A stretch of DNA of 15,664 nucleotides. Source: Polyangia bacterium (GTDB lineage: Bacteria > Myxococcota_A > Polyangia > Palsa-1104 > JAEUJZ01). The notes under the pieces were generated by a model. The model worked only from the letters and a program-made list of their open reading frames with translations, made no database searches and was not told the origin of the DNA. How positions within the stretch are numbered: the first letter of the stretch is position 1; each line of letters starts with the position of its first letter. Positions 1 to 7,918 of the stretch are shown here, in pieces. The DNA lies in contig JAXLYD010000072.1 of assembly GCA_046351655.1 (NCBI GenBank), forward strand, positions 1-15,664, written 5' to 3'. The translations under genes were made by a program, and so were the position numbers.

Positions 1-273
1 CTCACGCGGAATCCGTCCACCCTGAAAGTGGGACGCCGCCAGGAGCGTAGCATCGTCGACAAGCAGACTCCTTCCGTGCTTTTGCATCACATGACACGAA
101 GTACAAAAAGAAGTCTGTTTCGAGTTTTCGATATGTCTGTCGACACCAATCACGCTGGCAGTCACCGGCAGCACAAACAGACCTGTGAATGCCAGCGTCT
201 TGCTCGCGTGGGCTGGCCGAATCAGGATCAGCGCCGCGAGCAGAATCGCCAGTCCAAACAGTACCGCGAGCAT
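1..273 (-). CDS. NapC/NirT/NrfH-family membrane-anchored multiheme quinol-dehydrogenase cytochrome; N-terminal ~91 aa only, gene runs off the window edge
   Basis: Not in the ORF track because no stop lies in the window. Hand translation of the minus strand from ATG at 273-271: MLAVLFGLAILLAALILIRPAHASKTLAFTGLFVLPVTASVIGVDRHIENSKQTSFCTSCHVMQKHGRSLLVDD... Hydrophobic N-terminal anchor followed by the family-typical FCxSCHxM first-heme motif (FCTSCHVM). Same orientation as the upstream cytochrome genes and 46 nt after the cytochrome c start. Confidence 0.6.
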   Translation of the reverse strand, partial: MLAVLFGLAILLAALILIRPAHASKTLAFTGLFVLPVTASVIGVDRHIENSKQTSFCTSCHVMQKHGRSLLVDDATLLAASHFQGGRIPRE

Positions 274-318
274 CTTCCCTCCCTGAACGCTGCGCTGCTG
301 TATGCAAGTGAAGCGTGG

Positions 319-672
319 TTACTTCTTGGCCAGCTTGCGAACGAACATCACCAGACCATCGAGCTGCTCACCCGCGATCTCTGGCGTCGCTGGCATCTTC
401 AGTTCTTTGCCGTCCTTTTGCACGGTCTTGCCCTTGGTGATGCTGTCTTTCAGATCGGCGTCCTTGAAGCTTTCCTGCACTTTCGGATCGGTCAGATCGC
501 GCAGTGGACCACCGAACTTTTTGCGTGCTTGCTCGGTGTCGCCTTTGCCATCTTCGCCGTGACAAGATGCGCACTTTGCTTTCCACGCACGCTTGACACG
601 CGGATCATTTTCATCGGCAGAAGCCGACAGGGCAAACGACAGCAGCGAGGCAATGATGAGGACTTTGCGCAT
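319..672 (-). CDS. Monoheme class-I c-type cytochrome (c551/c552-like), secreted
   Basis: 117 aa. Signal peptide MRKVLIIASLLSFALSASA|DE. Single CASCH heme motif. Distal KMPATPE (Met as candidate sixth ligand). Lys-rich. GGGAGAA Shine-Dalgarno 6 nt upstream of ATG 672. Confidence 0.8.
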   Translation of the reverse strand: MRKVLIIASLLSFALSASADENDPRVKRAWKAKCASCHGEDGKGDTEQARKKFGGPLRDLTDPKVQESFKDADLKDSITKGKTVQKDGKELKMPATPEIAGEQLDGLVMFVRKLAKK

Positions 673-734: not shown

Positions 735-1796
735 CTACAGCGTGTGGCAGTAGCGACACATTCCGTTTCGCACGATCTCTTGACGGTCGTGTCGCTCCAT
801 CCATTCAGGCGGATGCGGATTCCCACCGAGTCCGCCGACCTTGTGACAGTCTACGCAGTTTGAGCGCGGACCTTGATCGTGGCAGCTTGCGCAGCTTGTG
901 ATGTTCCGTCGGGCTGCAAGACCATGGAACTGCGGCGTACCCGGAATGTTGAATCCCGACGGATGTGGGTTTCGCGGGTTGTCGCTGCGACCACTTACGC
1001 CCTGCTCTTTGTGGCAGTTTTCGCAGAAGCTCTGTCCGTGGCAGCGCAGACACGATGCCGGATCGGCGCGCGTTTCGATGCTGTGTCTGCCGATGAAGTC
1101 GCCGCGGTGAATCAGATCGCTGTCGGCGCGCTCTGGGAATTTCAGCTCAATCGGAGCGAACACCGTTTTGGCATGACAGTCGGCACAGAATGTCTGTTCA
1201 TGACAGGTCGCGCAGCTCTCTGGCGAGGATCGCGCCGGTCGAGCATGGCCCAGTACAAAGTTGCCGCGATGCGAAAACTGCGTGATCGGTTTCTGCGGAT
1301 AGCGGCGCAGATCCTTGTGACAGGTGCCGCAGCTTCCTTGCTCGTATTCCTGCTTGTGGGTATGGCAACCAAAGCACGACTCCATGGTCGGCGGCGTACC
1401 GGGTTGGCCTTTTTCCGACAGCGTCTTGTGGCAGCGGGTGCAGTCTTCTTTGGTCTGCTCGATGTGCTTGGCGTGCGACAGCTTCAGCGTCGATGGAGTC
1501 CGCCGATAGGAAGTCGGGCGAATCGGATCAGAATGACAGAATCCGCACTCGCCTTTCTTTTTGTTGTCTTCGTGGCATTCCAGACACTTTGACTCCTTGG
1601 GAAAGAAGTCCCCTTTCATGTCTTGCGCGTCGTAAATCGGTTCGTGACAGACCACGCAGTCGATCTTGGCTTTGCTGTGGACGCTGTGTGGAACCTTGAT
1701 CGTGTCGCCCCCGCCGATCTTGGCCCAGAATGTCGCACAGGCGACGGTAAATAGAACGCTGGCCAGCAAAAACCAGCGGAGGGCTCGGGCGCTCAT
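735..1796 (-). CDS. Periplasmic or membrane-anchored multiheme c-type cytochrome with 13 CxxCH motifs (doubled-CXXCH type)
   Basis: 353 aa. N-terminal hydrophobic segment (signal or anchor). 13 CxxCH: CVVCH, CLECH, CGFCH, CTRCH, CFGCH, CGTCH, CATCH, CADCH, CLRCH, CENCH, CASCH, CVDCH, CRYCH. Several occur as paired CxxCH-x(3-5)-FCxxCH units. Start ATG overlaps the upstream stop (ATGA at 1793-1796). Confidence 0.9.
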   Translation of the reverse strand: MSARALRWFLLASVLFTVACATFWAKIGGGDTIKVPHSVHSKAKIDCVVCHEPIYDAQDMKGDFFPKESKCLECHEDNKKKGECGFCHSDPIRPTSYRRTPSTLKLSHAKHIEQTKEDCTRCHKTLSEKGQPGTPPTMESCFGCHTHKQEYEQGSCGTCHKDLRRYPQKPITQFSHRGNFVLGHARPARSSPESCATCHEQTFCADCHAKTVFAPIELKFPERADSDLIHRGDFIGRHSIETRADPASCLRCHGQSFCENCHKEQGVSGRSDNPRNPHPSGFNIPGTPQFHGLAARRNITSCASCHDQGPRSNCVDCHKVGGLGGNPHPPEWMERHDRQEIVRNGMCRYCHTL

Positions 1797-3055
1797 TGCT
1801 GCACCTCACGGAAGACTTGCGTTGCGTTGTACGCGAGCTTTACGACAAACTCAACGCGCCTTTCCACAAACGGAGTCACGTCGGCAAAGCCTGTCGCCAC
1901 GATTCGGAAGCCGCGACCCAAGTTGCCTGCAACGGTTCCGGTCCCCGTAAACGAAAACGCTTGTCCGTTTATCGGTTGATCCAAAAAGTAACTGTTGGCA
2001 CCCAGCGTTACAAACCAAGCCGGAGTCAGCTTGTGGGTGCTGTAAAGCCGCGCTTGGACGTAGCCATTGTTTGGCAGTTTCAGTACGCGCAGCTCGCCGT
2101 TTAGCGTCGTGTGATCGCGCTGTCCCAGTGCGACTGTGGCCTTGATTCCGCCGCGCGCTCCGATTCCTTCCATGTTCACGACTGCGCGGAGATCGCCATA
2201 GAAACGGAGTCTGCGGATCGGCTTGAAAAAGACATTCCCGCCGACTTCATCGCGTGTCTCTTGCGAAAACACCGAAAAAATCGAGTTGAGCGGCAGAAAC
2301 AGATCGGGTGCTGTCCGACGATAATCGGCGCCGATCTGAAACATCAGATTGGGAATCCAGGTTGCTGCCACATCGGCTTCCGCAACCCTCGCTTCTGGAA
2401 TCGAATACAGCGTATATCCGGTCAGCGCGATCTGTTCATGGGGAACATAGCGTGCATCGACCGCGATGTCCTGACGGGCGGCGCGGCCTTCCCCCATCAC
2501 TTGGTGAAAAGACACCCCGACTTCGGTGTCCACGGAATGGCGGTAAAACATCCTGCCGCCGAACACCACGTCCCCGCGGCTGACCGAAAAACGCGGCGTG
2601 ACCGGAACGCCCCCGTACCCGCTGATCCCAAGTCCTTTGTAGATTTGCAGAGTCGCCGATCCACCGTCGAGCTGGGTGCTGCGCGCGGCCCCACCAAAGA
2701 CAAACTGACGACCCAGACGTACTTGCACCCTTTTTTTCCAGAAGCTGCCTTCCAGATAGCCAAGATCGATGTCTCCGGACCAGTACTCGTCACGGCCTAT
2801 GTCCAGTTGTACAGAGCCCCAGCCCGACATCACAATGTTGATGCTGTCGAAATAGGGGCGCTTGATCTGCGCTGTGACACCAAGCGATTGATAGACCGGA
2901 ACGACGGTGTGGATCTCTCCGTCCCGTGGGTCAGCACGCCCGGACAGCAGCGTCGATACATTGAATTCGACCGAGTCCGCACGCGCTACGGAAGCCAAAC
3001 ACAGCGCGCCGCACAGAATCGACCGCTTGAGTCTTTGATGGGACTTAGTTTCCAT
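1793..3055 (-). CDS. Outer-membrane beta-barrel (porin-like) component of a porin-cytochrome conduit
   Basis: 420 aa. Signal peptide ...CLASVARA|DS. Alternating hydrophobic/polar beta-strand patterns throughout (IALTGYTLYSI, YVQARLYST, WFVTLGANSYF, GFRIVATGF, EFVVKLAYN). G/Y/aromatic-rich with no Cys motifs. Sandwiched between multiheme cytochrome genes, with an 11-nt overlap upstream and a 4-nt overlap downstream. The ORF is certain; the porin role is an inference. Confidence 0.6.
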   Translation of the reverse strand: METKSHQRLKRSILCGALCLASVARADSVEFNVSTLLSGRADPRDGEIHTVVPVYQSLGVTAQIKRPYFDSINIVMSGWGSVQLDIGRDEYWSGDIDLGYLEGSFWKKRVQVRLGRQFVFGGAARSTQLDGGSATLQIYKGLGISGYGGVPVTPRFSVSRGDVVFGGRMFYRHSVDTEVGVSFHQVMGEGRAARQDIAVDARYVPHEQIALTGYTLYSIPEARVAEADVAATWIPNLMFQIGADYRRTAPDLFLPLNSIFSVFSQETRDEVGGNVFFKPIRRLRFYGDLRAVVNMEGIGARGGIKATVALGQRDHTTLNGELRVLKLPNNGYVQARLYSTHKLTPAWFVTLGANSYFLDQPINGQAFSFTGTGTVAGNLGRGFRIVATGFADVTPFVERRVEFVVKLAYNATQVFREVQQ

Positions 3056-4670
3056 CGGCGACTCCGTTTAGGTGCGTCGTGGTCAGGGCTCCCGGCGGAC
3101 CAGAAAAGAGAATCGTGCCGCTTGCGTCCATGGTCTTGGCGTGGCAGGTCACACAGTCGACAAGTCGCATGGTGGCGGTGTGGTTGGCATCTTTGGGCGG
3201 AATGCCGTGACATGATCCGCACGACGCTTGGTTCTCTGCGTTCCAGATCGGATTCCGATTCACCGTCGTGCTGGTGTCTGTCAGCAGCTTGCTGCCGCTG
3301 CCGTGACAGTACGTACTGGAACACTTGGCGGCTGCGCGATCCCACTTGGGACTGGCTCCTTCTCGATTGCTAAGCTGCGCCGCAAGCGAGGCCGGAAAGA
3401 TGGTGACACCTTGTCCGAACGCTTTGTGAAGGTTGCCGCTGCCCAGAAGTTGCAGGTCGTTGCGGTGGCATTCCGAGCACGCAATCGGAGCGCTCAGCTT
3501 GTGACTGGCATTGACGTGCGCTGCGTGTGCGCCGACGCTGACGAGGCTTGTATCGGTCTTCCGCAACAGATCCTGGAAAGGACTGCTGCCGCCAAATCCG
3601 TGGCAAGATGAGCACTGTCCTTTGCCATCGCCTGCATCGCTCTTTCCGTTTACGTGCAGACCCCCTGTGACAAAGTGTTTGGCATCGTCCACCGTGCGGT
3701 TGTGACAAAGCACGCAGCGGGTGATGCTTGGATCATGGCTCGCAGGGGGCGCGCCGTGACAGGTTCCGCAGATCGCTTGCGTGCTCGGTCCTGTCCACGT
3801 TGGCGTCGTATTCGCTGCATTGAGATCGCCGAGCACAGCACCATGACAGTAGACATTTGTGCACTGCTTGGTCCCGGCATCAAACAGCGGCGGACTTGTG
3901 CGATACATCGCGTAGGGAGTCGCACTGGCCAAGCTTCCAAATGCAATGATCGGAGGCGACGTGCGCAGGGTGTCATCGCTGTTAAACACATGCCCCGGAT
4001 CAAGCCAGGAGACACGCTTTGGATGGCACTCTGTACACGCGATTTGACGACCCAGTGAAGCGCCCGTTGCGTGCGCACGGTGGGCACTTGGCAGACGGGA
4101 ATGGCACGTATCGCAGGTGGTCACGCCTTGCGGATGACAGGTCAGGCACGACACCTTGACTTCGCCCCCTGTCAGGTCTTGACCGTGACAGCCGCTGCAC
4201 GCGCTGAGCTTGTAGTTTGCTTGCCGCAGCAGCGCACCGTGAAACTGCCCGTTTGGATCTTCGGGGTTTAGGATTCCGGCTTGGTGATAGATCGATCGAA
4301 CGTAGGACACACCACAGTCCACGATCCAGGTCCGCAGCGAATCACGGACCGCATCGGAAATGCGCTTGTGGGAATCCGATGTGGTGTCGCTCGCGATGAT
4401 CAAAAGAAGCCGGGAGTTTGCATCCCCAGCGACGGATCGAACAGGCTGGGAACCGCCTCCCAAGACGGACAGATAATCCGATGTATCAAGCCCACCCGCA
4501 GGTGCTGGGCCGCTGTGACAACTGCCACAGTTGTCTTTCATGATCTGTGCTACGTCGTCTTTCCAGCTTGTGCACTGCGTCCGCGTTCCTTGCGGAGTCC
4601 GCGCACTGCCGCAGCCGATGAGCAACATCACTGCACACAGCAGCGATGGATATCCAAGCACCCCGCCCAT
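3045..4670 (-). CDS. Lipoprotein multiheme c-type cytochrome (11 CxxCH + 2 CxxxxCH), OmcB-like family
   Basis: The track ORF 3045..4766 begins at GTG. The likely true start is ATG 4670 (M33), preceded by AAGGAG 8 nt upstream and only 5 nt after the TAG of the upstream gene. N-terminus MGGVLGYPSLLCAVMLLIGC with lipobox LIGC. CxxCH motifs: CGSCH, CSGCH, CLTCH, CDTCH, CTECH, CGTCH, CVLCH, CSSCH, CSECH, CGSCH, CVTCH. Two CxxxxCH motifs (CTNVYCHG, CSSTYCHG), each followed by a CxxCHG. Confidence 0.85.
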   Translation of the reverse strand: MGGVLGYPSLLCAVMLLIGCGSARTPQGTRTQCTSWKDDVAQIMKDNCGSCHSGPAPAGGLDTSDYLSVLGGGSQPVRSVAGDANSRLLLIIASDTTSDSHKRISDAVRDSLRTWIVDCGVSYVRSIYHQAGILNPEDPNGQFHGALLRQANYKLSACSGCHGQDLTGGEVKVSCLTCHPQGVTTCDTCHSRLPSAHRAHATGASLGRQIACTECHPKRVSWLDPGHVFNSDDTLRTSPPIIAFGSLASATPYAMYRTSPPLFDAGTKQCTNVYCHGAVLGDLNAANTTPTWTGPSTQAICGTCHGAPPASHDPSITRCVLCHNRTVDDAKHFVTGGLHVNGKSDAGDGKGQCSSCHGFGGSSPFQDLLRKTDTSLVSVGAHAAHVNASHKLSAPIACSECHRNDLQLLGSGNLHKAFGQGVTIFPASLAAQLSNREGASPKWDRAAAKCSSTYCHGSGSKLLTDTSTTVNRNPIWNAENQASCGSCHGIPPKDANHTATMRLVDCVTCHAKTMDASGTILFSGPPGALTTTHLNGVADGN

Positions 4671-4675
4671 CGCCG

Positions 4676-7105
4676 CTACTCCTTTTCGCGCAAGTAAGGA
4701 GGCTTGTACGGATTTGCGATGTTGTGGACTTTGCTGACAGAAAACTCCGCGCCTTCGCTGTGACACACCGAACAGGTTTCCACCGGCTTGCCCATCGGAT
4801 CGGTCCAGGTATTAAGAGCCGCATGTCCCGCTGCAGCAGAGGTATCGTGACAGCCCAGACACGCCGCGGTTCCGGCCTGTAGATAGGATGTGTTTTGGCA
4901 CTTTCCGGACACGCAGCTCTGTCCGATACCACAGGGGGCCGATGCAGAGCAGCTTGCGCCGGAGTCTCCGTGGCATTTTTTGCAGTTGCGAACATCTTGC
5001 GGAAACAGAATTTCCGAAAAGTCATTCGCAGTGTTCGAGTTGCCGATGTAGACAAGCGCGTTTGGTTTGACAAGACCACTGCGTTCCGCATAACCACCGA
5101 GCAGTCGCGCGAAGTGGGTGGAGTGAATCATCGCCGAAAACAGAATTGTCTGTCCGGGCGTCGGATCGACCGAGATCACACAGGTGTCCGCTTTTCCGTC
5201 GGCATTGGTGTCCTGACAAGTTTCCCAACCAGCGGCATTGCCACGACATTGGCTGCTCATCGTGCAGGCCAGACCGCGGCCCCCAACGATGCGATCGACA
5301 GCGCCAGCGGTGTGACAGATCGAACAGCCTTCCGCATCGCGACGACTACCGCCGTGCGCTTGCGTGACAACGTGGCAGCTATTGCAGGACTCTCGCTTGA
5401 TGACATGGCGCGGCTGAATCGCTTGTGATCCACCGACGCGGAAATCGACCAGTGCGCTGCCGACATCGCGGATCGATGTGCCTTTGTACGTCGTCGTTTC
5501 CACCACGTAGAGCCACGCGGAATAAGTTCCGGCGGGATTGGCCCGCGGCGTAAGTCCAGTCGTGTTCAGTGGCGTCTGTGCGTTCGCCGGCCAAGTCGTG
5601 GCCGGACTGTACGAATACACATTGCTCGCGGAATCAAACGTCAGCGTTCCCACCGTCTTGAGGCTCAGCGACGGATAAATCATCTGCCGATCGTTTGTCG
5701 GCCCACCAATCAGCAGCGTGGCAGACAGCGCAGAATTGGTCTTCAGATCGGTGATCGCGGCACCTGTTCCGTCCGCGACTTTGAAGCTGAGCTTGAATGT
5801 ATCGCCGACCATCATGGCGGCCATCGGACCCGATCCGCCGGATACCGTGACTTCGCTCAGCTGGACTTTGCGGACATGGGTGCGCGTCAGGATTTCGTGT
5901 TTGTCCGGAATCGGCGAAATGCCCGATGAGTCCGCGCTGTGGCACGTCGTACACTGCGCATCGTCTGTTTGCTTGGGATGCGTCGATGTTTCGCACAGCA
6001 GTGAGGCCGGATTGCACTTGGCCAGGCTGCTCTTGCTGGCGCAGTCGGCATCGACGGCACAAACGCCGGTGTACGTGCGGATTGGACTCAGCGTTCCGGT
6101 GTCAAAAAACAGTGCATCGTGACAAGCGCCGCAGGCCTGACGCGACGGCTTTTTCAGATAGCGATCGTCTTTGTGACACTTTACACAGTCTTTTTCCGCA
6201 TCAGGCATCGATGGGAATCCGACGTTTGTAAACAGCGGCAGGGTTGTATCCGCAGGAACGCCGTATTCTGGATGGGCGACGCCGGGGTTTGCCTGATGTT
6301 CACCGCGGTGCACACCATGGACTTTGCGCACCGTCGTGTTGGCACTGTATCCGTCCTGGTTGTGACAGACTTTGCAGCTTGCGATGGGGAATAGATCCAG
6401 CGACCAGTTTCCCAGCGGCGAAAATCCCGGCTCGATGTGATGCATGTACAGCTTGCCGGTCTCGGTTCCCTTGTGACAGTCGGCGCAGCTAGAAGACTGC
6501 GGGTCGCCCGATGCATAGGTTTCCACCGTCGCTGTGCCGATCTGAAAATCGAGCAGAGGGAATATCTGCTGCTGCTCATCTGCGGTCTTGGCCCACAGGG
6601 CAACCGTGTATGTTCCCGCTGCTTCACTTCCGATGGGGGCAAGCTGATACGTCAGCGATCCATCCGATTCCGTCGTCAGACCTGGTGCATTTGGGTTTGC
6701 GTAGGACGGATTCTTTAGGTTGATGTAGTGGTGCTGGCGATCCTTGGCAGTTCGATCGGTGACAGCATTGAGCAGCAGGTTCGCACTCTTGGTCGTGATT
6801 GCCCCGCGCGGACCCACGATGTACAGATTTGCGGTCCCAAGCTCCGACGGCGCGAGGAGGCGTCCACAGTCCGATCCGAGCTTCAGCGTGAGCTTGGGCG
6901 CTTCACCGGGCATGTAATAGGAACCCTGCGCCGGGGGCGAAAGCGCAAGCTCTGCTTTGAAACCGGGGCCGTTCGGATCGCACGCCACCGGATTCATGTC
7001 CGTGCTAGGAATCAGAGATCCGGAAGGACCGATGGGTCCGACGGGGCCTTCGCACGTTGCGAACATCAAGGCACACAGAGAGAGGAGTCTGCTGGTGAGC
7101 CGCAT
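4676..7105 (-). CDS. Outer-surface decaheme c-type cytochrome, MtrC/OmcA-like domain arrangement, probable lipoprotein
   Basis: 809 aa. Signal peptide MRLTSRLLSLCALMFATC (lipobox-like). About 200 heme-free residues, then 5 CxxCH (CADCH, CKVCH, CVKCH, CGACH, CTTCH). About 180 heme-free residues with a Cys cluster (CAVDADCASKSSLAKCNPASLLC), then 5 CxxCH (CNSCH, CSICH, CKKCH, CLGCH, CSVCH). First gene of the operon. Confidence 0.85.
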   Translation of the reverse strand: MRLTSRLLSLCALMFATCEGPVGPIGPSGSLIPSTDMNPVACDPNGPGFKAELALSPPAQGSYYMPGEAPKLTLKLGSDCGRLLAPSELGTANLYIVGPRGAITTKSANLLLNAVTDRTAKDRQHHYINLKNPSYANPNAPGLTTESDGSLTYQLAPIGSEAAGTYTVALWAKTADEQQQIFPLLDFQIGTATVETYASGDPQSSSCADCHKGTETGKLYMHHIEPGFSPLGNWSLDLFPIASCKVCHNQDGYSANTTVRKVHGVHRGEHQANPGVAHPEYGVPADTTLPLFTNVGFPSMPDAEKDCVKCHKDDRYLKKPSRQACGACHDALFFDTGTLSPIRTYTGVCAVDADCASKSSLAKCNPASLLCETSTHPKQTDDAQCTTCHSADSSGISPIPDKHEILTRTHVRKVQLSEVTVSGGSGPMAAMMVGDTFKLSFKVADGTGAAITDLKTNSALSATLLIGGPTNDRQMIYPSLSLKTVGTLTFDSASNVYSYSPATTWPANAQTPLNTTGLTPRANPAGTYSAWLYVVETTTYKGTSIRDVGSALVDFRVGGSQAIQPRHVIKRESCNSCHVVTQAHGGSRRDAEGCSICHTAGAVDRIVGGRGLACTMSSQCRGNAAGWETCQDTNADGKADTCVISVDPTPGQTILFSAMIHSTHFARLLGGYAERSGLVKPNALVYIGNSNTANDFSEILFPQDVRNCKKCHGDSGASCSASAPCGIGQSCVSGKCQNTSYLQAGTAACLGCHDTSAAAGHAALNTWTDPMGKPVETCSVCHSEGAEFSVSKVHNIANPYKPPYLREKE

Positions 7106-7354
7106 GGATATTAGTCTCTTAATGATGATGATAATTCCTCGCGGAACGGAATGGGAAGCTGATAGTCGATCGAATGCTCACGAAAACGTGTCCGCAATCG
7201 GCAAGTGGCTTCTCGATCAGGGTGCAGAATCTAACGCTAGGATCGATTTGAGGGGGCTGTCCGGGGCCGAAATGTGCGCAAACGTCGTCGAAAGATCCGC
7301 TGCTGTGGACATCCTCTTGCCATTTCCGAGAAAATGCAAAAGGGGGTCGAAAGT
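7106..7354. promoter_or_regulatory. Divergent promoter region between the cytochrome operon (-) and the EF-hand gene (+)
   Basis: 249-bp non-coding gap between divergent starts. Contains an AT-richer patch (ttaatgatgatgataatt, 7118-7136), the 8-bp palindrome TCGATCGA and GATC-containing inverted repeats. No confident -35/-10 assignment. Confidence 0.35.
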
Positions 7355-7918
7355 ATGCAGAGCATTTTGTCACCGCTACAGGTTCGCAAGTTCTCCACGC
7401 TGTTTTCCCTGCTAGACACAAATGGAGACGGATGTCTTTCGGAAGCAGACTTTCGCGAGCAAGCGCGGCGGATTTTAGAAGCGTTTGGTCTTGCGCAAGA
7501 TGAACGTCGAGCACGGCTTCTGTTTGAGAGCCGCAGCGAGCTGTTTCATCGTCTGATTTCCGGTGCAGACAAAGACCGCAGCGGAACCGTTTCCTTGGAT
7601 GAGTTTCTGCGCTATTTCGAACGGCAAATTCTCGCGCATCGGGCTGCTGGGGTTGCATCACCGTGGCTTGTGCAGTCGTGTCGTGATGTGATCGAACTGA
7701 TCGATCAAGATCGCAACGAAACCATCAGCGAAGCCGAGTATGCGCAGCTTCTGCGTGCGATGGGAAGCGATGCGGACCCGCATGTAAACTTTGCCAAGCT
7801 GGATCGGGATGGCGATGGAAAACTGACGTTAAAAGAAATGGTGGCGCTGTCGCTGGAATTTATGACCAGCGACGATCCAGATGCGCCAGGGAACTTCTTT
7901 TTCTGTGGGAAGGTGTAA
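7355..7918 (+). CDS. EF-hand calcium-binding protein with four EF-hand loops
   Basis: Track ORF 7274 starts at GTG. Best start is ATG 7355, with AAGGGGG 8 nt upstream. Loops: DTNGDGCLSEAD, DKDRSGTVSLDE, DQDRNETISEAE, DRDGDGKLTLKE. No signal peptide. Confidence 0.8.
   Translation: MQSILSPLQVRKFSTLFSLLDTNGDGCLSEADFREQARRILEAFGLAQDERRARLLFESRSELFHRLISGADKDRSGTVSLDEFLRYFERQILAHRAAGVASPWLVQSCRDVIELIDQDRNETISEAEYAQLLRAMGSDADPHVNFAKLDRDGDGKLTLKEMVALSLEFMTSDDPDAPGNFFFCGKV

What the first reader, a model, noticed from the sequence alone, without database searches (positions are those of the whole stretch)
4676..7105. MtrC/OmcA-like split-barrel decaheme architecture in a Pcc-type context
The 10 CxxCH motifs fall into two pentaheme blocks (residues ~205-390 and ~575-800). 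These are separated by, and preceded by, heme-free segments of ~180-200 aa. The second heme-free segment is rich in beta-like alternation (GTYSAWLYVVETT, LVDFRVGG) and carries a Cys cluster (CAVDADCASKSSLAKCNPASLLC). This matches the four-domain layout of Shewanella MtrC/OmcA/UndA, which also carry a conserved disulfide in a beta domain. The N-terminus also carries a short collagen-like GPVGPIGPSGS tract immediately after the lipobox Cys, possibly a flexible tether.
Basis: inference. Interest (0 to 1): 0.65.

Follow-up and report, generated by a model that had tools for sequence, protein, structure and literature searches.

The report
MtrC/OmcA-type decaheme cytochrome, myxobacterial variant
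The gene encodes a cell-surface ten-heme cytochrome of the same family that Shewanella uses to pass respiratory electrons to minerals, but here, in a myxobacterium, it heads an operon for a different, Geobacter-style outer-membrane electron conduit; this is a recognisable variant of a known system.

Summary
The ORF is on the minus strand (7105->4676, 809 aa). It has exactly 10 CxxCH motifs in two blocks of five (aa 207-389 and 574-782), each preceded by a heme-free beta segment.

- Pfam PF22113 (MtrC/MtrF domains II/IV) matches at E 2e-30.
- NCBIfam TIGR03507 (OmcA/MtrC) matches at E 3e-54, just under its curated cut-off.

The error concerns the Cys cluster CAVDADC...C. It is not in the second beta domain. 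It is a roughly 36-residue insertion between hemes 4 and 5 of domain II. Domain III has no cysteine, so the Shewanella domain-III CX8C disulfide is absent. Three family-invariant 4-Cys insertions sit in the heme domains instead.

The GPVGPIGPSGS tract is the shortest form of a family-wide (GXY)n linker of 1-22 triplets.

The "Pcc-type" context is real. Downstream, with overlapping or near-abutting junctions through the periplasmic cytochrome gene, lie a 13-heme lipoprotein, a 22-strand outer-membrane barrel, a 13-heme c7-type periplasmic cytochrome, a monoheme cytochrome c and a NapC/NirT quinol dehydrogenase. This linkage recurs in 15 of 23 well-flanked Myxococcota loci.

Verdict: a new variant of a known kind, of moderate interest.

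The parts
4676..7105 (-). Gene A: 809-aa OmcA/MtrC-family decaheme lipoprotein cytochrome
7052..7105 (-). Signal peptide ending in the lipobox-position Cys18 (MRLTSRLLSLCALMFATC)
   Evidence: Cys18 aligns with the lipobox Cys (L-x-[AG]-C) in 36 of 42 relatives. The window's -1 residue is Thr, which is atypical.
7013..7048 (-). Short collagen-like (G-X-Y)4 linker GPVGPIGPSGSL
   Evidence: 4 triplets here, 1-22 in relatives. Pfam Collagen PF01391 hits 17 of 42 relatives.
6506..6970 (-). Domain I, heme-free beta domain (aa 46-200; 7 modelled strands; C42/C80 possible disulfide)
   Evidence: AF2 secondary structure with pLDDT about 90. MtrC domains I-II (9eov) align over 244 of 278 residues at 3.2 A. 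C80 is conserved in 41 of 42 and C42 in 35 of 42 relatives.
5876..6505 (-). Domain II, pentaheme domain (CxxCH at aa 207, 244, 307, 325, 385)
   Evidence: all motifs invariant. Colinear HMMER alignment of hemes 3-5 with MtrF.
5993..6061 (-). 4-Cys insertion 1 (C349, C355, C364, C371; contains a CX8C) between hemes 4 and 5
   Evidence: The four Cys are invariant in 42 sequences. CX8C is present in 41 of 42. MtrF has only about 10 residues between the corresponding points. Modelled as a beta hairpin.
5411..5875 (-). Domain III, second heme-free beta domain (aa 411-565; 8 modelled strands; no Cys)
   Evidence: pLDDT >90. Zero Cys here and in 37 of 42 relatives. Aligns with MtrF residues 288-505 within one HMMER stretch.
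4679..5410 (-). Domain IV, pentaheme domain (CxxCH at aa 574, 594, 708, 749, 778), with 4-Cys insertions at aa 614-642 (nt 5180-5266) and aa 719-736 (nt 4898-4951)
   Evidence: PF22113 full-length match at aa 566-795. Invariant Cys. pLDDT >90 over both insertions.
3045..4670 (-). Gene B: 541-aa lipoprotein (LLIGC lipobox) with 11 CxxCH + 2 CxxxxCH motifs. Its start lies 5 nt after the stop of A, and an AAGGAG lies within the last codons of A
   Evidence: TIGR01904 CxxxxCH/CxxCH domain E 1.2e-21. No PDB sequence relative.
1793..3055 (-). Gene C: 420-aa outer-membrane beta-barrel (signal peptide + 22 strands). Overlaps the end of B by 11 nt
735..1796 (-). Gene D: 353-aa signal-peptide cytochrome with 13 CxxCH motifs, built of c7-type modules. 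ATGA overlap with the stop of C
   Evidence: PDB sequence hits are mainly Geobacter c7/PpcA (top 11), with weaker matches to other c7-like or multiheme chains and none to MtrA.
319..672 (-). Monoheme class-I cytochrome c with signal peptide
   Evidence: PF00034 and PF13442. One CASCH motif.
1..273 (-). 5' part of a NapC/NirT-type tetraheme quinol dehydrogenase gene (TM helix + first CxxCH), running off the window
   Evidence: 71-87% identical to the genes at the same position in L003, L005, L007 and L011. The L003 gene carries PF03264 Cytochrom_NNT.

Best explanation
Gene A encodes the outermost component of a complete extracellular electron-transfer (EET) operon of a Polyangia-type myxobacterium. 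The gene order is A (surface decaheme), B (13-heme lipoprotein), C (22-strand outer-membrane barrel), D (13-heme periplasmic cytochrome), a monoheme cytochrome c, and a NapC/NirT quinol dehydrogenase.

Proposed mechanism:
1. The NapC/NirT protein oxidises menaquinol at the inner membrane.
2. Electrons cross the periplasm via the monoheme cytochrome and D.
3. D sits in or under barrel C and wires electrons across the outer membrane to lipoprotein B.
4. A receives the electrons. A is lipid-anchored at Cys18 and held off the membrane by a short Gly-Pro-X linker.
5. A distributes the electrons through two five-heme chains, flanked by two beta domains as in MtrC/OmcA, to insoluble Fe(III)/Mn(IV) oxides, humics or other extracellular acceptors.

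What is shown:
- Homology and fold of A to MtrC, OmcA, MtrF and UndA.
- Ten invariant heme motifs plus 11 invariant extra His residues, enough for bis-His ligation.
- The barrel fold of C and the heme counts and signal or lipoprotein peptides of B and D.
- The operon structure and its recurrence in related genomes.

What is inferred:
- Cellular locations, direction of electron flow, physical contacts between A, B and the barrel, the acceptor, and the staggered-cross heme packing.

Compared with Shewanella, A lacks the domain-III CX8C redox switch. It carries three invariant 4-Cys insertions, most likely pairs of structural disulfides, in the heme domains.
For: - 10 CxxCH in 5+5 against 0.06 expected by chance.
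- PF22113 at 105.8 bits and TIGR03507 at 184.8 bits. All 42 sampled relatives match both.
- Profile against PDB sequences: MtrF 2.8e-25, OmcA 1.6e-13, UndA 1.3e-7, MtrC about 1e-4, with hemes 3-10 colinear with MtrF.
- AF2 model with pLDDT 82.4 and pTM 0.76 and the order beta / heme / beta / heme.
- Foldseek top 13 hits are all MtrC or OmcA at E 5e-18 to 5e-15.
- Invariant columns: all heme Cys/His, His 223, 263, 266, 278, 376, 403, 584, 661, 664, 761 and 794, and 12 extra Cys.
- B has an LLIGC lipobox and 13 heme motifs. D has 13 heme motifs and c7 modules.
- Gene junctions through the first four genes: a 5-nt gap with AAGGAG between A and B, an 11-nt overlap between B and C, and an ATGA overlap between C and D. 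The monoheme and NapC-like genes follow on the same strand.
- The same operon plus the NapC/NirT gene occurs in relatives at 75-82% identity.
- C and D lie next to A in 15 of 23 Myxococcota loci with at least 6 kb on both flanks, in three different gene orders.
Against: - TIGR03507 is below NCBI's curated cut-off (184.8 against 209.3), so the protein lies outside the core Shewanella-trained subfamily.
- No MtrA or MtrB homologue is present, so docking cannot be copied from the MtrCAB structure.
- 8 of 23 well-flanked relatives, including Anaeromyxobacter oryzae, are orphan genes. More distant Verrucomicrobia and Acidobacteriota homologues are also orphan. A therefore does not strictly need this conduit.
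- The window's lipobox is atypical (FATC).
- The monoheme cytochrome c plus NapC/NirT pair also resembles the accessory genes of Fe(II)-oxidising Mto clusters (own knowledge), so the direction of flow is not settled.
- Global Foldseek TM-scores are only 0.4-0.55, with 10-13 A rmsd.
- No hemes are modelled.
Confidence: 0.72

Rival explanations
1. The components are the same but the direction is opposite. The conduit takes electrons up from Fe(II), reduced humics or a cathode and delivers them through the monoheme cytochrome c and the NapC/NirT protein to the quinone pool or to an oxidase.
For: The operon ends with a class-I monoheme cytochrome c and a NapC/NirT gene. That pairing recalls mtoD-cymA of the Sideroxydans mto cluster (own knowledge). 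Multiheme conduits are reversible in principle.
Against: Known oxidising conduits (MtoAB, PioAB) lack an MtrC-type surface cytochrome (PMC4245776; bioRxiv 10.1101/2022.03.26.485925). This operon has two surface lipoprotein cytochromes. The cultivated myxobacterial relatives with such genes (Anaeromyxobacter) are metal reducers (PMC4245776).
Confidence: 0.12
2. A is an OmcA-like free-standing accessory reductase. It is only loosely associated with the conduit, or shuttles electrons to soluble mediators, while B is the true MtrC-equivalent partner of the barrel. The operon linkage would reflect co-regulation, not a complex.
For: B accompanies C-D in 14 of 15 linked loci. A also occurs alone in 8 of 23 genomes and in other phyla. 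The position of A relative to C-D varies: A-B-C-D, A-C-D-B, and C-D upstream of A.
Against: This differs from the main explanation only in the contact topology. Translational coupling of A to B (5-nt gap, Shine-Dalgarno inside A) argues for stoichiometric co-production.
Confidence: 0.3
3. The resemblance is superficial. A would be a periplasmic multiheme cytochrome or reductase unrelated to MtrC, and the 5+5 pattern would be coincidental.
For: Sequence identity to the Shewanella proteins is only 14-20%. The lipobox is atypical. TIGR03507 is below its cut-off.
Against: Independent sequence-profile and fold evidence single out MtrF, MtrC, OmcA and UndA, with a clear gap to the next hits. The heme motifs align colinearly. 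The lipobox Cys and the GXY linker are shared with the family.
Confidence: 0.03

Closest known systems
Shewanella outer-membrane cytochromes MtrC, MtrF, OmcA and UndA (OmcA/MtrC family; Pfam PF22113, NCBIfam TIGR03507; PDB 4lm8, 3pmq, 4lmh, 3ucp)
   Same: - Lipoprotein with a Gly-X-Y-rich linker after the lipid-anchor Cys.
- Domain order beta / pentaheme / beta / pentaheme.
- Ten CxxCH motifs in colinear positions.
- Fold match over about 490-515 residues.
   Different: - Only 14-20% identity, and below the TIGR03507 curated cut-off.
- No CX8C disulfide in domain III, which has no Cys.
- Three invariant 4-Cys insertions in domains II and IV; the first adds about 36 residues between hemes 4 and 5.
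- About 150-200 residues longer than MtrC or MtrF.
- Not encoded with mtrA/mtrB. It is encoded with a 22-strand barrel, a c7-type 13-heme periplasmic cytochrome and a second 13-heme lipoprotein.
Porin-cytochrome (Pcc) gene clusters of Geobacter and Anaeromyxobacter (Shi et al. 2014, PMC4245776)
   Same: [quoted passage not shown]
- D (353 aa, 13 hemes) matches the size and heme class reported for the Anaeromyxobacter Pcc periplasmic cytochromes (338-344 aa, 12-14 hemes).
- B carries the Geobacter CxxxxCH/CxxCH domain.
   Different: - The Anaeromyxobacter pcc clusters described in 2014 had only two genes and no outer-membrane cytochrome. This operon adds two, one of them of the Shewanella MtrC/OmcA family.
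- Sequence homology of C, D and B to Geobacter OmbB, OmaB, OmcB or ExtABCD could not be tested here.
MtrCAB complex (PDB 6r2q)
   Same: The overall logic is shared: a periplasmic multiheme wire inside a large barrel, capped by a surface decaheme.
   Different: - D is not an MtrA/DmsE-type decaheme.
- There is an extra lipoprotein cytochrome, B.

Membership tests
OmcA/MtrC family decaheme outer-membrane cytochromes | Ten CxxCH heme-binding motifs arranged as two pentaheme domains | tested here: met
   Motifs at aa 207, 244, 307, 325, 385 and 574, 594, 708, 749, 778. All are invariant in 42 relatives.
OmcA/MtrC family decaheme outer-membrane cytochromes | Four-domain order: beta domain I, pentaheme II, beta domain III, pentaheme IV | tested here: met
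   [not shown]
OmcA/MtrC family decaheme outer-membrane cytochromes | Match to the curated family profiles | tested here: inconclusive
   Pfam PF22113 scores 105.8 bits against a cut-off of 30, so it passes. NCBIfam TIGR03507 scores 184.8 bits against a cut-off of 209.3, with E 2.7e-54, so it is significant but under the curated threshold. All 42 relatives match, best at 2.4e-71.
OmcA/MtrC family decaheme outer-membrane cytochromes | Lipoprotein signal peptide (lipobox Cys) followed by a flexible linker | tested here: met
   Cys18 aligns with L-x-[AG]-C of relatives, although the window's own box FATC is atypical. A GXY linker follows, as seen in the N-termini of MtrF, OmcA, UndA and MtrC.
OmcA/MtrC family decaheme outer-membrane cytochromes | Conserved CX8C disulfide in beta domain III (the redox switch for flavin binding; PMC9973256) | tested here: not met
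   Domain III (aa 411-565) has no Cys here and none in 37 of 42 relatives. The only CX8C (C355-C364) lies in an insertion in heme domain II.
OmcA/MtrC family decaheme outer-membrane cytochromes | Staggered-cross packing of the ten hemes | not testable with these tools
   [not shown]
MtrCAB-type conduit (MtrC proper) | Encoded with an MtrA/DmsE-type decaheme and an MtrB/PioB-type 26-strand barrel | tested here: not met
   C and D have no MtrB_PioB or MtrA-family profile hit. D matches c7/PpcA and other c7-like or multiheme chains among PDB sequences, with no MtrA. C has about 22 strands and MtrB is not its best fold match.
Porin-cytochrome (Pcc) gene cluster sensu Shi et al. 2014 | Porin-like outer-membrane protein gene adjacent to a periplasmic multiheme cytochrome gene | tested here: met
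   C is a 22-strand barrel with a signal peptide. D has 13 CxxCH and a signal peptide, and its start overlaps the stop of C. The periplasmic location is inferred.
Porin-cytochrome (Pcc) gene cluster sensu Shi et al. 2014 | Outer-membrane lipoprotein multiheme cytochrome in the cluster | tested here: met
   B has an LLIGC lipobox and 11 CxxCH + 2 CxxxxCH motifs.
Porin-cytochrome (Pcc) gene cluster sensu Shi et al. 2014 | Sequence homology to Geobacter OmbB, OmaB, OmcB or Ext proteins | not testable with these tools
   No reference sequences or profiles for these proteins are available in the libraries. The only indirect evidence is the TIGR01904 domain in B and the c7 modules in D.
Bacterial collagen-like proteins (Pfam PF01391) | A long uninterrupted (G-X-Y)n run able to form a triple helix | tested here: not met
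   The window protein has only 4 triplets and no PF01391 hit. Relatives have up to 22 triplets, and 17 of 42 hit PF01391.

The most novel reading that the evidence does not exclude
In Myxococcota, an MtrC/OmcA-type surface cytochrome has been grafted onto a non-Mtr (Geobacter-style) trans-outer-membrane conduit, forming a true hybrid complex. In relatives with 14-22 Gly-X-Y triplets, the linker would form a collagen triple helix that displays the decaheme as a stalked trimer. The invariant CX8C-containing 4-Cys insertion next to heme 5 would take over the redox-switch role that the domain-III CX8C plays in Shewanella.
Probability: 0.1. Interest if true: 0.7.

Novelty: new variant of a known kind. 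Interest (0 to 1): 0.42.

Why it matters
The result suggests that the surface module of extracellular respiration (an MtrC/OmcA-type decaheme) and the trans-outer-membrane module (barrel plus periplasmic cytochrome) are interchangeable parts. The two best-studied paradigms, Shewanella Mtr and Geobacter Pcc, are combined in one operon in a soil and sediment lineage (Polyangia and other Myxococcota) that is abundant in metagenomes.

It extends the 2014 description of Anaeromyxobacter pcc clusters as lacking outer-membrane cytochromes.

It also flags that the domain-III CX8C oxygen/flavin switch is not a universal feature of the family. This bears on how far Shewanella flavocytochrome models can be generalised.

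For annotation, "MtrC" hits in metagenome surveys of Myxococcota should not be read as evidence of an MtrCAB pathway.

Tried and rejected
- The plus-strand translation of 4676-7105 is full of stops, so the gene is on the minus strand.
- The first attempt to read the NapC-like gene in the listed ORF frame (2..307) gave a non-cytochrome peptide. The correct frame starts at position 273.
- Internal duplication (domains I-II against III-IV) tested by BLASTP is only weakly visible: best E 0.002 around heme motifs, and 24% identity over 156 residues for domain I against domain III at E 0.08. I do not use it as evidence.
- The hematite-binding motif [ST]-P-[ST] is absent.
- The afdb50 fold library was unavailable, so barrel C could not be compared with predicted Geobacter OmbB or ExtB structures.
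- A homologue search with D was meant to tie it by name to Adeh_3392 of A. dehalogenans. The top 120 hits carry only generic names, so the link rests on matching size and heme count alone.
- A literature search for a collagen-like linker in multiheme cytochromes found nothing.
- Reading the 4-Cys clusters as Fe-S or metal sites was considered and set aside. The protein is an exported lipoprotein, the spacing is not CxxCxxC, and the segments are modelled as confident beta hairpins. Disulfide pairing itself could not be checked without coordinates.
Full report

The coordinates 4676..7105 delimit one ORF, but on the minus strand. It encodes 809 residues.

A motif scan finds exactly ten CxxCH, at residues 207, 244, 307, 325, 385 and 574, 594, 708, 749, 778. 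There are no CxxxCH or CxxxxCH variants. 2000 shuffles of the same protein give on average 0.06 motifs and never more than one. The 5+5 pattern and the two heme-free stretches (aa 1-206 and 390-573) are therefore as described.

They are modelled as two long antiparallel strands.

One statement is wrong in position. The Cys cluster CAVDADCASKSSLAKCNPASLLC is residues 349-371, between heme motifs 4 and 5 inside the first pentaheme block. The second heme-free segment has no cysteine at all.

The N-terminus is MRLTSRLLSLCALMFATC-E-GPV-GPI-GPS-GSL. That is four G-X-Y triplets, starting two residues after the Cys that aligns with the lipobox Cys of relatives.

**2. What is the protein?**

Three independent lines converge on the OmcA/MtrC family.

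(a) Curated profiles:
- Pfam PF22113 (MtrC/MtrF domains II/IV) scores 105.8 bits against a cut-off of 30. The whole profile is matched at aa 566-795.
[quoted passage not shown] That is below its curated cut-off of 209.3.
- All 42 sampled relatives match both models.

(b) Solved structures by sequence:
- The single sequence finds only MtrF with a significant score (1e-10).
- A profile of 42 relatives finds MtrF (2.8e-25), OmcA (1.6e-13), UndA (1.3e-7) and MtrC (about 1e-4). The only other hit is a marginal NrfB match.
- The alignment with MtrF is colinear for hemes 3 to 10 and runs through domain III.

(c) Fold:
- An AF2 model built on the 42-sequence alignment has pLDDT 82.4 and pTM 0.76. Its order is beta (7 strands, aa 50-189), helical/heme (206-410), beta (8 strands, 415-557), heme (571-795).
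- In Foldseek against the PDB, the top 13 hits are all MtrC or OmcA (E 5e-18 to 5e-15, about 800 aligned columns). The next hit is at E 5e-5.
- About 490-515 residues align, while the two heme domains of MtrF hold only about 300. The beta domains must therefore be part of the match.

Whether the ten hemes form the staggered cross cannot be measured here. The models carry no hemes and I have no coordinate access. The alignment does show all ten motifs and eleven further His residues as invariant, enough for bis-His ligation.

**3. How it differs from the Shewanella proteins.**

- Identity is only 14-20%.
- The Shewanella family carries a conserved CX8C disulfide in domain III that controls flavin binding and peroxide formation (PMC9973256). 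Here domain III has no cysteine, and the same is true of 37 of 42 relatives.
- Instead there are three 4-Cys insertions, each invariant across the family: C349/355/364/371 in domain II, and C614/620/630/642 and C719/725/731/736 in domain IV.
- The first insertion adds about 36 residues where MtrF has about 10. It contains a CX8C spacing (C355-C364) conserved in 41 of 42 sequences.
- The insertions are modelled as beta hairpins, confidently for the two in domain IV (pLDDT >90) and moderately for the first (about 79-89). I infer paired structural disulfides. The pairing could not be checked.

**4. The collagen-like tract.**

In relatives the run of G-X-Y triplets after the lipobox Cys ranges from 1 to 22. 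17 of 42 relatives hit Pfam Collagen PF01391, and a few hit the streptococcal Scl collagen-like adhesin models.

The window protein has the shortest regular version, with four triplets.

The N-termini of MtrF, OmcA, UndA and MtrC printed also show four to six G-X-Y triplets directly after their lipobox Cys (for example ...ACGGSDGDDGSPGEPGKP in MtrF). The tract is thus a shared, variable-length tether of the whole family. Four triplets are too few for a triple helix (own knowledge). Whether the 14-22-triplet versions trimerise is open.

**5. Context.**

A is the first gene of a minus-strand operon.

| Gene | Coordinates | Description | Junction with the previous gene |
|---|---|---|---|
| B | 4670..3045 | Lipoprotein (LLIGC) with 11 CxxCH + 2 CxxxxCH and the Geobacter-type TIGR01904 domain | Starts 5 nt after the stop of A, with AAGGAG inside the last codons of A |
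| C | 3055..1793 | No Pfam or NCBIfam match; modelled (pLDDT 83) as a signal peptide plus 22-strand barrel | Overlaps B by 11 nt |
| D | 1796..735 | 13 CxxCH, signal peptide, c7-type modules | Overlaps C by ATGA |
| Monoheme class-I cytochrome c | 672..319 | One CASCH motif, signal peptide | Follows D |
| NapC/NirT-type gene | 273..1 | Start of the gene, running off the window | Follows the monoheme gene |

- Among PDB sequences, D matches mainly Geobacter PpcA/c7, with weaker matches to other c7-like or multiheme chains, and does not match MtrA.

By organisation this is a porin-cytochrome (Pcc-type) cluster in the sense of Shi et al. 2014 (PMC4245776), not an Mtr cluster. That paper described the Anaeromyxobacter pcc clusters as two-gene units: a porin plus a 338-344-aa, 12-14-heme periplasmic cytochrome, with no outer-membrane cytochrome. 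D fits that description. The operon here adds two surface cytochromes.

**6. Is the linkage conserved?**

The closest genomes are Polyangia/Myxococcales MAGs at 75-82% identity. They carry the identical gene order, including the NapC/NirT gene.

Among Myxococcota-type homologues of A (at least 38% identity) with at least 6 kb on both sides, 15 of 23 have C and D within the locus and 14 have B. The arrangements are A-B-C-D, A-C-D-B, or C-D upstream of A. Linkage kept through rearrangement argues for a functional association.

The other 8, including Anaeromyxobacter oryzae, and the more distant Verrucomicrobia and Acidobacteriota homologues inspected, are stand-alone decaheme genes.

The wider superfamily is large. 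There are 1110 clusters of 50% identity at E <= 1e-3 and 118 at E <= 1e-30.

**7. Mechanism.**

The best-supported model is an outward electron path:
1. Menaquinol is oxidised by the NapC/NirT protein.
2. Electrons pass to the monoheme cytochrome c and D in the periplasm.
3. They cross the outer membrane through barrel C.
4. They reach lipoprotein B.
5. They reach A, which distributes them to insoluble or polymeric acceptors.

What is shown: family membership and fold of A, heme counts, signal and lipoprotein peptides, the barrel fold of C, and the operon structure and its recurrence.

What is inferred: locations, contacts, direction and substrates.

Rivals:
- Reverse flow (Fe(II) or cathode uptake). 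This is suggested by the monoheme cytochrome c plus NapC pairing. It is disfavoured because known oxidising conduits lack MtrC-type proteins.
- A as a loosely attached OmcA-like accessory, with B as the real cap.
- A merely superficial resemblance to MtrC, which is essentially excluded.

**8. Novelty.**

- A FeGenie-based survey lists MtrC and ExtABC hits in Myxococcota MAGs (bioRxiv 10.1101/2022.03.26.485925).
- MtrC-annotated genes outside Shewanella were noted in 2013 (PMC3669403).
- The systematic study of MtrCAB distribution does not mention Myxococcota (PMC8805035).
- I found no description of the MtrC-type plus Pcc-type operon, of the missing domain-III CX8C, or of the 4-Cys insertions.

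I rate it a new variant of a known kind, of moderate interest.

Noticed in passing
window 8123..10186 (-), with 10288..11058 (-): A 687-aa protein carries the major-vault-protein domains MVP_shoulder (E 1.6e-18), Vault_3 and Vault_4, plus a Pro/Ala-rich N-terminus and a long coiled-coil-like C-terminus. This is a bacterial MVP-like gene. It and the neighbouring 256-aa gene without a Pfam match are conserved beside the cytochrome operon in relatives L003, L005, L007 and L011 at 87-95% identity.
   Followed up: partly
window 7274..7918 (+): A four-EF-hand calcium-binding protein is encoded divergently from the cytochrome operon, sharing the 7106-7273 intergenic region. The pairing is conserved in relatives at 66-75% identity.
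   Followed up: partly
window 11232..12902 (-) and 13136..14848 (-): Two paralogous Cys-rich lipoproteins of about 560 aa have a VWA-like start (DILFxxDNSPSM) and no significant Pfam family. One of them (the 556-aa gene at 11232..12902) is 90-93% conserved in L007 and L011.
   Followed up: no
relatives P0117, P0036, P0053, P0015: Family members carry 16-22 uninterrupted Gly-X-Y triplets between the lipid-anchor Cys and a second conserved Cys. Some match streptococcal Scl collagen-like adhesin models. A possible trimeric stalk for a multiheme cytochrome was not found in the literature searched.
   Followed up: partly
loci L058, L065, L069: The Verrucomicrobia and Acidobacteriota (Bryobacteraceae) homologues whose decaheme ORF could be read (L058, L065, L069; 25-31% identity) are 10-heme proteins of about 675-790 aa. 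They have no adjacent multiheme or barrel genes, so they are orphan MtrC-like decahemes.
   Followed up: partly
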